Shown: one piece after another, positions 19,416 to 23,043 of the stretch
Numbering within the stretch: position 1 is the stretch's first letter
Layout of the letters: each line of letters starts with the position of its first letter
Origin: Escherichia coli O157:H7
Lineage (GTDB): Bacteria; Pseudomonadota; Gammaproteobacteria; Enterobacterales; Enterobacteriaceae
Direction: 5' to 3' (one strand)
DNA length: 64,000 nt
Assembly (NCBI RefSeq): GCF_013167455.1
Contig: NZ_CP038328.1
The notes under the pieces: model-generated
Database searches by the model: none
The model's input: only the letters and a program-made list of their open reading frames with translations
Told to the model about the DNA's origin: nothing
Translations under genes and position numbers: made by a program

Positions 19416-20678
19416 TTACTCCGCCACACTCTCGCGCAGCGGTTTCACAGGAAAAACTTTTACCTGCTTAATCATATTGTCCTGTACGTCGAGAATATCG
19501 ATATCGTACTCGCCAATACGCACGCGGGTGCCTACGACAGGGATCTCTTCCAGTGCCTCAAGAATGACGCCATTAACCGTGCGGGCATCATCTTCCGGTA
19601 GATGCCAGTTAAAGGCTTTGTTGATTTCCCGCACGTTGGCAGTGCCATCAATAATCACCGAACCGTCGTTTTGCGGCGTGACTTCTTCGGCAAGTGTTGG
19701 CGACATCGACGTAGTGAAATCGCCGACAATCTCTTCCAGAATATCTTCAACCGTCACCAGCCCCTGAATGTCTCCATACTCGTTGACGACCAGGCCGACT
19801 TTCTTTTTGTTGCGCTGAAACTTCACCAACTGCGTGCTGAGCGGCGTACCTTCCGGCACAAAATAGATCTCGTCCGCGGCGCGCAGCATGGTTTCTTTGG
19901 TGAACTCTTTTTTCTCCGACATCAACCGCCAAGCTTCACGTACTCGCAGCATACTGATGGCGTCGTCCAGCGAATCACGGTAGAGCACGATGCGCCCGTG
20001 AGGTGAGTGGGAGAGTTGGCGCAGAATAGATTTCCAGTCATCGTTGATATCAATACCGATAATTTCACTGCGCGGCACCATGATGTCATCAACGGTCATT
20101 TTTTCCAGATCGAGCACCGACAGCAGCATATCCTGATTGCGACGGGAAATTTGTGAGCGCGATTCGTGCACGATAGTGCGCAACTCTTCTTTGCTCAAAG
20201 AGCCGCTAACCACGATATCGGTTTTGATACCCATCATGCGCATCAGCATACGGGTGATAGCATTCAGCAACCAGACCAGCGGCATCATCAAAATTTGCAG
20301 GGGAGCCAGCAGAAAACTACTCGGATAAGCGACTTTTTCCGGGTACAGCGCGGCAATGGTTTTCGGCAATACCTCAGCAAAAACCAGTACGACAAAAGTC
20401 AGCACACCAGTCGCAATTGCCACGCCCGCATCGCCGTACAAACGCATCCCAACAATAGTGCCGAGCGCGGAGGCAAGAATATTGACCAGGTTATTGCCGA
20501 TTAACACCAGGCTTATCAGGCGGTCTGGCTTACGCAGCAATTTTTCGACGCGTTTGGCCGAGCGATTACCCTGTTTCGCCATATGTCGCAGACGATAGCG
20601 GTTGAGGGTCATCATTCCGGTTTCGGACCCGGAAAAATAGGCTGAAATGACCACCATGATGATCAGAATAATGATCAA
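19416..20678 (-). CDS. yfjD: CorC/HlyC-family inner-membrane protein (CNNM transmembrane + CBS pair + CorC_HlyC domains)
   Basis: Matches K-12 YfjD over the ORF; the 5' end as listed begins at a TTG codon; the true start is ambiguous (see findings). Confidence 0.8.
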   Translation of the reverse strand: MIIILIIMVVISAYFSGSETGMMTLNRYRLRHMAKQGNRSAKRVEKLLRKPDRLISLVLIGNNLVNILASALGTIVGMRLYGDAGVAIATGVLTFVVLVFAEVLPKTIAALYPEKVAYPSSFLLAPLQILMMPLVWLLNAITRMLMRMMGIKTDIVVSGSLSKEELRTIVHESRSQISRRNQDMLLSVLDLEKMTVDDIMVPRSEIIGIDINDDWKSILRQLSHSPHGRIVLYRDSLDDAISMLRVREAWRLMSEKKEFTKETMLRAADEIYFVPEGTPLSTQLVKFQRNKKKVGLVVNEYGDIQGLVTVEDILEEIVGDFTTSMSPTLAEEVTPQNDGSVIIDGTANVREINKAFNWHLPEDDARTVNGVILEALEEIPVVGTRVRIGEYDIDILDVQDNMIKQVKVFPVKPLRESVAE

Positions 20679-20723
20679 CGTAGTAGTAGAAATGTGTTCC
20701 AGGGGGAAACTCCTTTTCTGGGT

Positions 20724-21515
20724 TTAGCTGATTAACTGCTGGACAATTCGGCTGCCGAAGTAGGCCAGTGTCAGAATGACTGCACCCGCAACGTTAAACC
20801 AGACGACGCGACGTCCACGCCATCCTTCATGATAATGTCCCCATAGCAGCACAATATAGACAAACCACGCCACGATAGAGAGCACAGCCTTGTCGATATT
20901 TTCCATGCTAAATAAGTTGTGCATGTAGAACAGGCCAGTGCAAAGCGTGAGCGTTAGCAGCACCACGCCAATCTGCGTGATGTGGAACATTTTACGCTCG
21001 ATACTCATCAATGGCGGCATTTCCTGGTTAAACGCCAGCTTCTTGTTCTTCAGTTGGTAATCAATCCACGCCAGTTGCAGCGCGTACAGGGCGGCGATAA
21101 TTAGCGTGGCATAGGAAAAGAGCGATAAGCCAATGTGCACCAGCATCCCAGGCGTAGCTTCCAGATGGGTGATGTATTCATTGGGCATGAAGGTTGCCAG
21201 CGCCAGGTTGATAAGCGCAAAGGCATAGACAATGGGTAGCAGCAACCAGCCACGATTGCGAGAAGCCACAATGGTCATTACCGTACAGATCATCAAACTG
21301 ACCAATGAACCAACGTTCAGCAGGCTGAGGTTTTGTCCGCTATCACCGTCGGGCAGGATGCGGGCTTCCAGAGCGATTGCGTGGCAGACCAGCGCAATGA
21401 CCGCAGAAATAATAGCCATGCGCCGCCAGCCGCCGTTTTTTTGCAGCAGACCGGGAACAATCAGCGCAAGACTGACGGAGTAGGCGACAAGCGCGAGCAG
21501 AGCAAAAACGGGCAT
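20724..21515 (-). CDS. ypjD: Inner-membrane protein YpjD (cytochrome c assembly-like family)
   Basis: ORF track gives 288 aa; trimmed to the internal Met (MPVFALLALVAY…) to give the 263-aa form I recall for K-12; start uncertain. Confidence 0.7.
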   Translation of the reverse strand: MPVFALLALVAYSVSLALIVPGLLQKNGGWRRMAIISAVIALVCHAIALEARILPDGDSGQNLSLLNVGSLVSLMICTVMTIVASRNRGWLLLPIVYAFALINLALATFMPNEYITHLEATPGMLVHIGLSLFSYATLIIAALYALQLAWIDYQLKNKKLAFNQEMPPLMSIERKMFHITQIGVVLLTLTLCTGLFYMHNLFSMENIDKAVLSIVAWFVYIVLLWGHYHEGWRGRRVVWFNVAGAVILTLAYFGSRIVQQLIS

Positions 21516-21681
21516 AGTGATGTCGACAGTTTGAGCAATAAGAAAGAGAAGCAGTATAGCGTCAGGTGAACGCTGCTCCAACCGTTGCATAACAACAAAG
21601 ACGCCTTCATGTTATACTGCGGCAAAATACTGATGATGTGTCGCGATTGCGGCCAACCGTTTCCACCCCAGGCGAGAGACA

Positions 21682-23043
21682 ATGTTTGATAATTTAACCG
21701 ATCGTTTGTCGCGCACGCTGCGCAATATCAGTGGCCGTGGACGCCTCACTGAAGACAACGTAAAAGATACGCTGCGCGAAGTGCGCATGGCGCTGCTGGA
21801 GGCGGACGTCGCTCTGCCGGTAGTGCGTGAGTTTATCAATCGCGTAAAAGAGAAAGCGGTTGGTCATGAAGTTAATAAGAGCCTGACGCCGGGGCAGGAG
21901 TTCGTCAAAATCGTCCGTAACGAACTGGTTGCGGCGATGGGCGAAGAGAACCAGACCCTGAATCTGGCTGCGCAACCGCCTGCGGTCGTGCTGATGGCAG
22001 GCCTGCAAGGTGCCGGTAAAACAACCAGCGTTGGTAAACTCGGTAAGTTCCTGCGCGAGAAGCACAAGAAGAAAGTGCTGGTGGTTTCTGCTGACGTCTA
22101 TCGCCCGGCGGCAATCAAACAGCTTGAGACGCTGGCAGAGCAGGTGGGCGTTGATTTCTTCCCTTCTGATGTTGGTCAGAAGCCGGTTGATATTGTTAAC
22201 GCGGCGCTGAAAGAAGCCAAACTGAAATTCTACGACGTGCTGCTGGTGGATACCGCTGGTCGTCTGCACGTTGACGAAGCGATGATGGACGAGATCAAAC
22301 AAGTCCATGCGTCGATTAACCCGGTTGAAACCCTGTTTGTGGTTGACGCCATGACCGGTCAGGATGCGGCCAATACGGCAAAAGCATTCAATGAAGCGTT
22401 ACCGCTTACCGGCGTAGTGTTGACCAAAGTGGACGGCGATGCCCGCGGCGGTGCGGCGCTCTCTATTCGTCACATCACTGGCAAACCGATCAAGTTCCTC
22501 GGTGTTGGCGAGAAAACTGAGGCGCTGGAGCCGTTCCATCCGGACCGCATCGCGTCGCGTATTCTCGGCATGGGCGACGTACTGTCGCTGATCGAAGATA
22601 TCGAAAGCAAAGTTGACCGCGCGCAGGCAGAGAAATTAGCCAGCAAGCTGAAAAAAGGTGACGGCTTCGATCTCAACGACTTCCTTGAGCAACTGCGCCA
22701 GATGAAAAATATGGGCGGCATGGCCAGCCTGATGGGCAAACTGCCGGGCATGGGGCAGATCCCGGATAACGTCAAGTCACAGATGGACGATAAAGTGCTG
22801 GTGCGTATGGAAGCCATCATCAACTCGATGACGATGAAAGAGCGCGCTAAGCCAGAAATCATCAAAGGTTCGCGTAAACGCCGTATTGCTGCCGGTTGCG
22901 GTATGCAGGTGCAGGACGTTAACCGTCTTCTGAAACAGTTCGACGACATGCAGCGCATGATGAAGAAAATGAAGAAGGGCGGAATGGCGAAGATGATGAG
23001 AAGCATGAAGGGGATGATGCCGCCGGGATTTCCTGGTCGCTAA
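21682..23043 (+). CDS. ffh: Signal recognition particle protein Ffh
   Basis: 453-aa ORF with SRP54 GTPase motifs (GLQGAGKTT, DTAGR) and Met-rich C-terminal M domain. Confidence 0.95.
   Translation: MFDNLTDRLSRTLRNISGRGRLTEDNVKDTLREVRMALLEADVALPVVREFINRVKEKAVGHEVNKSLTPGQEFVKIVRNELVAAMGEENQTLNLAAQPPAVVLMAGLQGAGKTTSVGKLGKFLREKHKKKVLVVSADVYRPAAIKQLETLAEQVGVDFFPSDVGQKPVDIVNAALKEAKLKFYDVLLVDTAGRLHVDEAMMDEIKQVHASINPVETLFVVDAMTGQDAANTAKAFNEALPLTGVVLTKVDGDARGGAALSIRHITGKPIKFLGVGEKTEALEPFHPDRIASRILGMGDVLSLIEDIESKVDRAQAEKLASKLKKGDGFDLNDFLEQLRQMKNMGGMASLMGKLPGMGQIPDNVKSQMDDKVLVRMEAIINSMTMKERAKPEIIKGSRKRRIAAGCGMQVQDVNRLLKQFDDMQRMMKKMKKGGMAKMMRSMKGMMPPGFPGR

What the first reader, a model, noticed from the sequence alone, without database searches (positions are those of the whole stretch)
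20640..20710. Ambiguous start codon for yfjD
The in-frame N-terminal extension (…LEHISTTTLIIILIIMVV…) is preceded by a strong AAGGAG Shine-Dalgarno 7 nt upstream of a CTG codon (plus-strand 20700-20702), whereas the nearest canonical starts (TTG at 20678, ATG at 20657) lie 24 and 45 nt further downstream. Either translation initiates at a rare CTG, or this strain carries a start-codon substitution relative to strains with ATG at that position.
Basis: seen in the sequence. Interest (0 to 1): 0.25.

Follow-up and report, generated by a model that had tools for sequence, protein, structure and literature searches.

The report
Known CTG start codon of yfjD
The E. coli membrane-transporter gene yfjD really does begin at a rare CTG codon behind a strong ribosome-binding site, but this is already documented, already in the reference annotation, and is not peculiar to this strain.

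Summary
On the minus strand, AAGGAG (20715-20710) lies 7 nt upstream of CTG (20702-20700). TTG (20678) and ATG (20657) follow in frame.

[quoted passage not shown] The curated MG1655 record and PGAP both start the 428-aa CDS at this CTG.

The second reading, a strain-specific loss of ATG, is refuted:
- At least 5424 of 5425 complete E. coli genomes that carry the locus have CTG here.
- Across 80 Enterobacteriaceae sequences the homologous codon is CTG 36, TTG 31, GTG 13, ATG 0.

Other comparative evidence agrees. Codons 2-8 (EHISTTT) are conserved as protein with many synonymous changes. Codon 9 is an ordinary, variable Leu codon. ATG16 would cut into the first transmembrane helix.

One small new point: across genera, CTG co-occurs with a full AAGGAG, while TTG/GTG species have AAGGA[A/C/T]. 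Five of seven inferred changes in each character fall on the same branch, which suggests compensation.

Verdict: real, correctly spotted, already known, low interest.

The parts
19416..20702 (-). yfjD coding sequence. It is 1287 nt, giving 428 aa plus stop, and encodes a CNNM/CorB-type 'HlyC/CorC family transporter'.
   Evidence: The RefSeq CDS in a related O157:H7 record (100% identical over the 301-nt query) maps exactly to these coordinates. The MG1655 b4461 CDS starts at the same ctg. Pfam finds CNNM at residues 11-184, CBS and CorC_HlyC. The window protein differs from K-12 at one residue, V390A.
20700..20702 (-). CTG (CUG) initiation codon of yfjD.
   Evidence: Read. It is the annotated CDS start. 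EcoGene 3.0 reports confirmation by mutagenesis. The homologous codon is always NTG in 80 Enterobacteriaceae sequences. CTG is present in at least 5424 of 5425 E. coli genomes carrying the locus.
20710..20715 (-). Shine-Dalgarno sequence AAGGAG.
   Evidence: Read. An AAGGA core is present upstream of the start in nearly all 80 sequences; three (Pluralibacter, Enterobacter sp. kpr-6, Franconibacter pulveris) have AAGGG or GGGAG instead. The full AAGGAG occurs in 32 of 36 CTG-start sequences but only 1 of 44 TTG/GTG-start sequences.
20702..20706 (-). C5 run whose last C is the C of CTG. Its length is polymorphic: C5 gives a 7-nt spacer (this window), C4 gives a 6-nt spacer (K-12).
   Evidence: Alignment with K-12. 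The C5 context is found in 330 genomes and the C4 context in 5094.
20724..20726 (-). TAA stop codon of the upstream gene ypjD, 21 nt before the CTG. It is in frame with yfjD only in C5 strains.
20676..20678 (-). TTG at codon 9. This is the formerly annotated start and is an ordinary Leu codon.
   Evidence: Codon 9 is CTG, CTC, CTT, CTA, TTA or TTG across species, and TTG in only 9 of 80. No SD precedes it. Mutating it had no effect on expression according to EcoGene 3.0.
20655..20657 (-). ATG at codon 16, an internal Met within transmembrane helix 1. Some automated gene callers mistake it for the start.
   Evidence: It is invariant in all 80 sequences. No SD precedes it. The CNNM profile already begins at residue 11, and the hydrophobic helix spans roughly residues 4-24. 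Versions of 413 aa beginning 'MVVISAYF' exist in non-NCBI sources.

Best explanation
yfjD (b4461) is translated from the CUG codon at window 20702-20700 on the minus strand. It encodes a CNNM/CorB-type inner-membrane protein.

Proposed mechanism:
- The 30S subunit is positioned by the 6-nt Shine-Dalgarno AAGGAG, 7 nt upstream here and 6 nt in K-12.
- Initiator fMet-tRNA reads CUG with a first-position C-U mismatch, so the protein begins fMet-Glu-His-Ile-Ser-Thr-Thr-Thr.
- CUG initiates at about 1% of AUG efficiency in reporter assays, so the codon sets a low translation rate. The full-length SD partly offsets this.
- ypjD ends 21 nt upstream, and no promoter-like or convincing terminator-like site lies between the genes. 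Ribosomes finishing ypjD may therefore also feed the site (translational coupling).

What is shown and what is inferred:
- Shown here: position, annotation, fixation in E. coli, conservation as NTG, and protein-level conservation starting exactly at codon 2.
- Shown in the literature: mutagenesis confirmation.
- Established knowledge: an fMet N-terminus.
- Inference: a low expression set-point, SD compensation and coupling.
For: - Literature. [quoted passage not shown] Mutating the previously annotated TTG at codon 9 had no effect. This made yfjD the second CTG-start gene in E. coli K-12, after hda.
- Annotation. The curated MG1655 record starts b4461 (YP_026171.3) at ctg. PGAP does the same in O157:H7 and K-12 AB1157.
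- E. coli population. 330 genomes with the C5 context plus 5094 with the C4 context carry CTG. That is 5424 of the 5425 genomes holding the locus. The most divergent strain also has CTG.
- Codon 1 across 80 Enterobacteriaceae sequences. It is CTG 36, TTG 31, GTG 13, with no third-position variation and no ATG.
- Codons 2-8 and 9. Codons 2-8 keep EHISTTT with abundant synonymous changes. Codon 9 varies like a normal Leu codon. Upstream in-frame codons are unconserved and often stops.
- SD. AAGGAG is correctly spaced, and no SD precedes TTG9 or ATG16.
- Indel tolerance. The C4/C5 indel immediately 5' of the CTG is tolerated, so nothing upstream is coding.
- Domain. ATG16 would truncate TM1 and the CNNM domain.
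- Efficiency. CUG gives 1-2% (10.1101/063800) or 0.86% (PMC11497404) of AUG.
- Compensation. CTG and GGAG change together on 5 of 158 branches.
Against: - The mutagenesis is cited only as unpublished results (Dague and Rudd) inside a database paper. I found no primary data.
- I found no ribosome-profiling or N-terminal proteomics evidence for yfjD. It is absent from the TetRP supplements, and the Ribo-RET supplement is not held.
- The invariant ATG16 cannot be excluded by sequence alone as a minor secondary start.
- The AAGGAG-spacer-CTG motif is not rarer than chance in the window.
- The predicted local RNA structure is unremarkable, with z about 0, so nothing structural explains efficient use of CUG.
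- Coupling to ypjD is untested. Several genera (for example Raoultella and Intestinirhabdus) have different sequence upstream.
Confidence: 0.93

Rival explanations
1. Translation starts at TTG, codon 9 (20678), giving a 420-aa protein. This was the older annotation and is the first canonical start in the ORF.
For: It is the first ATG/GTG/TTG after the upstream stop. A start there would still leave the whole Pfam CNNM domain, which begins at residue 11.
Against: - No SD-like sequence lies 5-10 nt upstream.
- Codon 9 is TTG in only 9 of 80 Enterobacteriaceae sequences. Elsewhere it is CTN or TTA, which are not start codons.
- Codons 2-8 are under clear protein-level constraint.
- EcoGene 3.0 reports that mutating this TTG had no effect on expression.
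Confidence: 0.02
2. Translation starts, wholly or partly, at ATG codon 16 (20657). This would give a 413-aa protein, as several automated gene callers predict.
For: ATG16 is invariant in 80 of 80 sequences. Proteins of 413 aa beginning 'MVVISAYF' exist in Logan, JGI and ENA predictions.
Against: - No SD precedes it.
- It lies in the middle of the first hydrophobic helix, and the CNNM profile already aligns from residue 11.
- Codons 2-15 are conserved as protein.
- The reported mutagenesis identifies the CTG as the start codon.
- The invariant Met is explained as a conserved TM1 residue.
Confidence: 0.04
3. The CTG is a strain- or lineage-specific substitution of an ancestral ATG.
For: None found. 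CTG is one mutation away from ATG only in the sense that any NTG is.
Against: - At least 5424 of 5425 complete E. coli genomes carrying the locus have CTG.
- E. albertii, a Salmonella, some Citrobacter species and the Enterobacter, Kosakonia and Raoultella sequences sampled also have CTG.
- No ATG occurs among the 80 sequences. The parsimony-inferred root state is TTG.
Confidence: 0.01
4. YfjD is made as a read-through fusion with YpjD, because the ypjD TAA is in frame with yfjD in this window.
For: TAA (20726-20724) is in frame with the CTG in the C5 variant.
Against: - The in-frame relationship exists only in the 330 C5 genomes. In the 5094 C4 genomes the frames differ.
- From general knowledge, TAA is the least leaky stop codon.
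- The seven intervening codons are not conserved across species.
Confidence: 0.005

Closest known systems
yfjD (b4461) of E. coli K-12 as annotated by EcoGene and RefSeq
   Same: It is the same gene, the same CTG codon and the same AAGGAG. The protein is 427 of 428 residues identical, with one change, V390A. The CTG start is reported as experimentally confirmed (PMC3531124).
   Different: The window (O157:H7-type) has one extra C in the spacer, C5 rather than C4. This gives a 7-nt instead of a 6-nt SD-start spacing and puts the ypjD stop in frame.
hda of E. coli, the first chromosomal E. coli gene shown to start at CTG (cited in PMC3531124)
   Same: It has a CUG initiation codon in an otherwise ordinary SD-led gene. 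Standard gene finders mis-annotate it.
   Different: It is an unrelated protein (a DnaA regulator) at an unrelated locus. I did not examine its ribosome-binding site here.
infC and pcnB AUU starts (near-cognate start codons discriminated by IF3). This comparison rests on my own knowledge.
   Same: A near-cognate start codon keeps translation low. For infC it also makes translation sensitive to IF3 levels.
   Different: No autoregulatory or IF3-dependent control has been shown for yfjD. The codon here is CUG, a first-position mismatch, not AUU, a third-position mismatch.
Start-codon and SD compensatory evolution in prokaryotes. This general phenomenon is recalled from the literature and was not checked here.
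   Same: A weaker start codon is accompanied by stronger SD complementarity. Here AAGGAG goes with CTG and AAGGA[A/C/T] goes with TTG/GTG.
   Different: This is a single-gene, multi-genus example involving the rare CUG. The test used only a rough NJ gene tree.

Membership tests
Bacterial genes with a CUG (non-AUG/GUG/UUG) initiation codon | A near-cognate codon sits at the 5' boundary of protein-level conservation, and no canonical start is available upstream in frame. | tested here: met
   Codons 2-8 are conserved as amino acids with synonymous variation. Codon 1 is always NTG. Upstream codons are unconserved or stops. There is no ATG, GTG or TTG between the ypjD TAA and the CTG.
Bacterial genes with a CUG (non-AUG/GUG/UUG) initiation codon | A Shine-Dalgarno sequence lies at functional spacing from that codon and not from the downstream candidates. 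| tested here: met
   AAGGAG lies 7 nt (window) or 6 nt (K-12) upstream of the CTG. Nothing SD-like precedes TTG9 or ATG16.
Bacterial genes with a CUG (non-AUG/GUG/UUG) initiation codon | Orthologues in other species carry a canonical start codon at the homologous position. | tested here: met
   TTG in 31 and GTG in 13 of 80 Enterobacteriaceae sequences at the same aligned codon.
Bacterial genes with a CUG (non-AUG/GUG/UUG) initiation codon | Experimental proof: mutating the codon abolishes expression, or the N-terminal peptide begins there with fMet. | not testable with these tools
   EcoGene 3.0 reports this as confirmed by start-codon mutagenesis and fusions, citing unpublished data. I found no profiling or proteomics data.
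CNNM/CorB ('HlyC/CorC family transporter', UPF0053) | Domain architecture of a CNNM (DUF21) transmembrane domain, a CBS pair and a CorC_HlyC C-terminal domain. | tested here: met
   Pfam PF01595 (8e-54, residues 11-184), PF00571 and PF03471 (1e-19). YfjD P37908 is listed with Salmonella CorB among bacterial CNNMs in 10.1101/2021.02.11.430706.
CNNM/CorB ('HlyC/CorC family transporter', UPF0053) | Mg2+/Co2+ transport activity. | not tested
   There is only family-level annotation. No functional data for E. coli YfjD were examined.

The most novel reading that the evidence does not exclude
The weak start codon may be a selected regulatory feature rather than an accident. It is never ATG in 80 sequences across Enterobacteriaceae, and when it is CUG it co-evolves with the SD.

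The most interesting version concerns magnesium. Initiation at near-cognate codons depends on IF3 proofreading and on Mg2+-dependent ribosome fidelity. A CUG, UUG or GUG start on a putative Mg2+ efflux (CNNM/CorB) gene could therefore make YfjD synthesis rise with free intracellular Mg2+ or fall with IF3 activity. That would be a built-in translational feedback.

Nothing here tests this. It rests only on the absence of ATG, on the SD/start co-variation and on family-level function.
Probability: 0.07. Interest if true: 0.6.

Novelty: already known. Interest (0 to 1): 0.15.

Why it matters
CUG starts are extremely rare in bacteria. One paper puts them at about 0.024% of annotated start codons (PMC11497404), and yfjD is one of only two confirmed in E. 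coli K-12.

The practical point is annotation quality. Gene finders that allow only ATG, GTG and TTG truncate YfjD by 8 or 15 residues and remove part of its first transmembrane helix. Such truncated versions exist in public metagenome-derived protein sets.

The finding adds nothing new for E. coli, because the reference annotations already use the CTG.

The cross-genus pattern is a tidy natural example of start-site compensation: CTG, TTG and GTG interchange, ATG never appears, and the SD is one base longer where the codon is CTG. It could be used in teaching or followed up with reporter fusions.

Tried and rejected
- Chance test of the motif. AAGGAG-N5-9-CTG occurs once against 1.79 expected, so the motif alone is not informative.
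- RNA structure around the initiation region. Both the C5 and C4 variants fold no better than shuffles, with z about 0. I propose no structural element.
- Promoter and terminator scan of 19300-21800. It found no minus-strand promoter-like site and no convincing terminator between ypjD and yfjD. This is weak negative evidence, used only to say that co-transcription is plausible.
- Ribosome-profiling evidence. The TetRP paper's supplements do not mention yfjD. The Ribo-RET preprint's supplements are not held. Neither main text discusses yfjD.
- A broad literature query on CTG, CUG and hda returned only myotonic-dystrophy and HDAC papers.
- The MazF-regulon paper lists yfjD with a cleaved ACA '17 nt from the start'. 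No ACA lies 17 nt upstream of the CTG. The distance fits an ACA in codons 3-4, measured to the old TTG start. I therefore treated it as an artefact of older annotation, not as evidence on the start site.
- Reaching beyond Enterobacteriaceae (Yersinia, Serratia and others). The single genome scan kept only the 80 best loci, all at least 87% identical. The protein search likewise listed only close relatives. The start codon in more distant orthologues is therefore unknown.
- A first attempt at a MAFFT codon alignment timed out. I replaced it with an ungapped 1200-nt comparison.

Full report
**What is in the sequence**

Reading the minus strand of window 20400-21000 gives ...CAG CAG TTA ATC AGC TAA ACC CAG AAA AGG AGT TTC CCC CTG GAA CAC ATT TCT ACT ACT ACG TTG ATC ATT ATT CTG ATC ATC ATG GTG...

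The features sit at these coordinates:
- The TAA at 20726-20724 ends the upstream gene ypjD.
- AAGGAG occupies 20715-20710, followed by the 7-nt spacer TTTCCCC.
- CTG occupies 20702-20700.
- The in-frame TTG (codon 9) is at 20678.
- The in-frame ATG (codon 16) is at 20657.

The mechanical ORF list starts the ORF at the TTG, giving 420 aa.

As a bare motif this is not remarkable. AAGGAG-N5-9-CTG occurs once in the window, against 1.79 expected from shuffles.

**What the locus is**

The window is E. coli, and 301 nt around the site are 100% identical to O157:H7 chromosomes. The neighbours are nadK, grpE, yfjD, ypjD and ffh.

The protein has the CNNM transmembrane domain (residues 11-184, E = 8e-54), a CBS domain and a CorC_HlyC domain. 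It is a bacterial CNNM/CorB-type protein, and E. coli YfjD (P37908) is listed beside Salmonella CorB in a CNNM structure paper.

**It is already known**

EcoGene 3.0 (Nucleic Acids Res 2013, PMC3531124) has a section titled 'CTG start codon verification'. It makes three points:
[quoted passage not shown] The reference annotations follow this:
- In NC_000913.3, yfjD (b4461, YP_026171.3) is a 1287-nt CDS whose first codon is ctg.
- PGAP annotates the same 1287-nt CDS in O157:H7 PV15-279 and in K-12 AB1157.
- Mapped to the window, this CDS is 19416-20702 on the minus strand.
- The window protein differs from K-12 at one residue, V390A.

**It is not a strain-specific substitution**

I used 30-nt megablast queries in which every possible 28-nt seed contains the CTG. 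The two queries share no exact word longer than 20 nt, so neither can seed a match on the other variant.
- The window-type context (GTTTCCCCCTG) is present in 330 complete E. coli genomes.
- The K-12-type context (GTTTCCCCTG, one C fewer) is present in 5094.
- Together that is 5424 of the 5425 genomes that carry the locus.
- The most divergent strain in the first search (ChlosBP-23-1, 93% identity) also has CTG.

The only polymorphism here is the C-run length, which changes the SD-start spacing between 6 and 7 nt. This indel is tolerated immediately 5' of the CTG. It also puts the ypjD TAA in frame in C5 strains only. Both facts show that nothing upstream of the CTG is coding for YfjD.

**Comparative evidence for the start position**

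A scan of one genome per species returned 80 Enterobacteriaceae loci at 87-99% protein identity. I compared 79 usable loci plus the window.

| Position | Pattern across 80 sequences |
|---|---|
| Codon 1 | CTG 36, TTG 31, GTG 13; no third-position change; no ATG |
| Codons 2-8 (E-H-I-S-T-T-T) | 77-80 of 80 identical at each position as amino acids; free synonymous variation (e.g. codon 5 TCT/TCC/TCA/TCG, codon 4 ATC/ATT/ATA) |
| Codon 9 | Normal Leu codon: CTG 49, CTC 11, TTG 9, CTA 6, CTT 4, TTA 1 |
| Upstream in-frame codons | Unconserved and frequently stops |
| Codon 16 | ATG in all 80 |

First-position-only variation among NTG codons marks codon 1 as an initiation codon rather than a Leu or Val sense codon. 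Because codon 9 varies like ordinary Leu, the E. coli TTG there is incidental.

ATG16 is invariant, but three things argue against it as the start:
- It lies inside the first hydrophobic helix, which spans roughly residues 4-24.
- It lies after the CNNM profile begins, at residue 11.
- It has no SD.

Automated callers in non-NCBI sources nevertheless produce 413-aa 'MVVISAYF...' versions. NCBI proteins begin 'MEHISTTT', including those from the CTG-start genus Enterobacter.

**How it most likely works**

The strong SD (AAGGAG, six pairs with the anti-SD) at 6-7 nt positions the 30S subunit. Initiator tRNA reads CUG with a first-position mismatch, so by established knowledge the product starts with fMet.

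Reporter measurements put CUG at 1-2% of AUG (bioRxiv 10.1101/063800). A later paper cites 0.86% and notes that CUG makes up about 0.024% of bacterial start codons (PMC11497404). The codon therefore implies a low translational set-point. That is an inference, not something measured for yfjD here.

Other observations bearing on mechanism:
- The local RNA is not predicted to be unusually structured or unstructured, with z about 0.
- ypjD stops 21 nt upstream.
- No minus-strand promoter-like site and no convincing terminator-like site were found between the genes.

Co-transcription and some termination-reinitiation coupling are therefore plausible but untested.

**A small new observation**

Across the 80 sequences, 32 of 36 CTG starts have the full AAGGAG. 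Only 1 of 44 TTG/GTG starts does; the others have AAGGA followed by A, C or T, or a weaker core.

On a neighbour-joining tree of 1200 nt of the CDS, parsimony gives:
- 7 changes between CTG and non-CTG;
- 7 changes between GGAG and non-GGAG;
- 5 of these falling on the same branch, out of 158 branches.

By my own calculation, a naive hypergeometric probability for that overlap is about 6e-7. It ignores branch lengths and tree error.

The co-changes separate these groups:
- the Enterobacter/Kosakonia/Lelliottia clade from its TTG-start neighbours;
- the Raoultella group from Klebsiella pneumoniae;
- the Escherichia/Salmonella/C. amalonaticus group from the Citrobacter freundii complex.

This looks like compensation of the weak CUG by one extra SD base pair. 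ATG is absent even though CTG, TTG and GTG have interchanged at least eight times by parsimony. That hints that strong initiation is disfavoured for this gene, but it could also be history.

**Verdict**

The 'rare CTG start' reading is correct and already documented and annotated. The 'strain lost an ATG' reading is refuted. Novelty: already known. Interest: low.

The remaining soft spot is the primary experimental evidence. It is cited as unpublished, and I could not find initiation-profiling or N-terminal proteomic data for yfjD.

Noticed in passing
window 20702-20706 (-): There is a C-run length polymorphism immediately 5' of, and including, the C of the CTG. C5 (7-nt SD spacing) occurs in this window and in 330 complete E. 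coli genomes. C4 (6-nt spacing) occurs in 5094. Only in C5 strains is the ypjD TAA in frame with yfjD.
   Followed up: yes
L003-L082 (position 1501 in most), and window 20700-20715: Across Enterobacteriaceae the yfjD start codon is CTG, TTG or GTG and never ATG. CTG co-occurs with a full AAGGAG SD (32 of 36), against 1 of 44 for TTG/GTG. On an NJ gene tree, 5 of 7 inferred changes in each character fall on the same branch. This looks like SD compensation for the weak codon.
   Followed up: partly
window 20724-21590 (-): The ypjD ORF from its first ATG is 288 aa (start 21590). RefSeq and MG1655 annotate 263 aa, starting at the second ATG (window 21515, 'MPVFALL...'). I did not examine which is right.
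   Followed up: no
L083 440-452 (E. coli ChlosBP-23-1): This divergent strain carries a 9-bp tandem duplication (CCCCAGTAA) in the ypjD-yfjD spacer. The duplication copies the end of ypjD, including a stop codon. The SD and CTG are unchanged.
   Followed up: partly
proteins P0002, P0093: Non-NCBI gene calls (Logan, JGI, ENA) give YfjD versions that start at Met16 ('MVVISAYF', 413 aa). One 640-aa entry is additionally frameshifted at its C-terminus into the antisense of grpE. These are annotation or assembly artefacts caused by CTG not being an allowed start.
   Followed up: partly
window 20691-20699 (-) (codons 2-4, GAACACATT): The MazF-regulon paper (PMC5001579, Table 1) lists yfjD with a cleaved ACA 17 nt from the start. 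No ACA lies 17 nt upstream of the CTG. The distance fits the ACA in codons 3-4, measured to the old TTG start. The reported '5'-UTR' cleavage would then actually be inside the coding sequence.
   Followed up: partly
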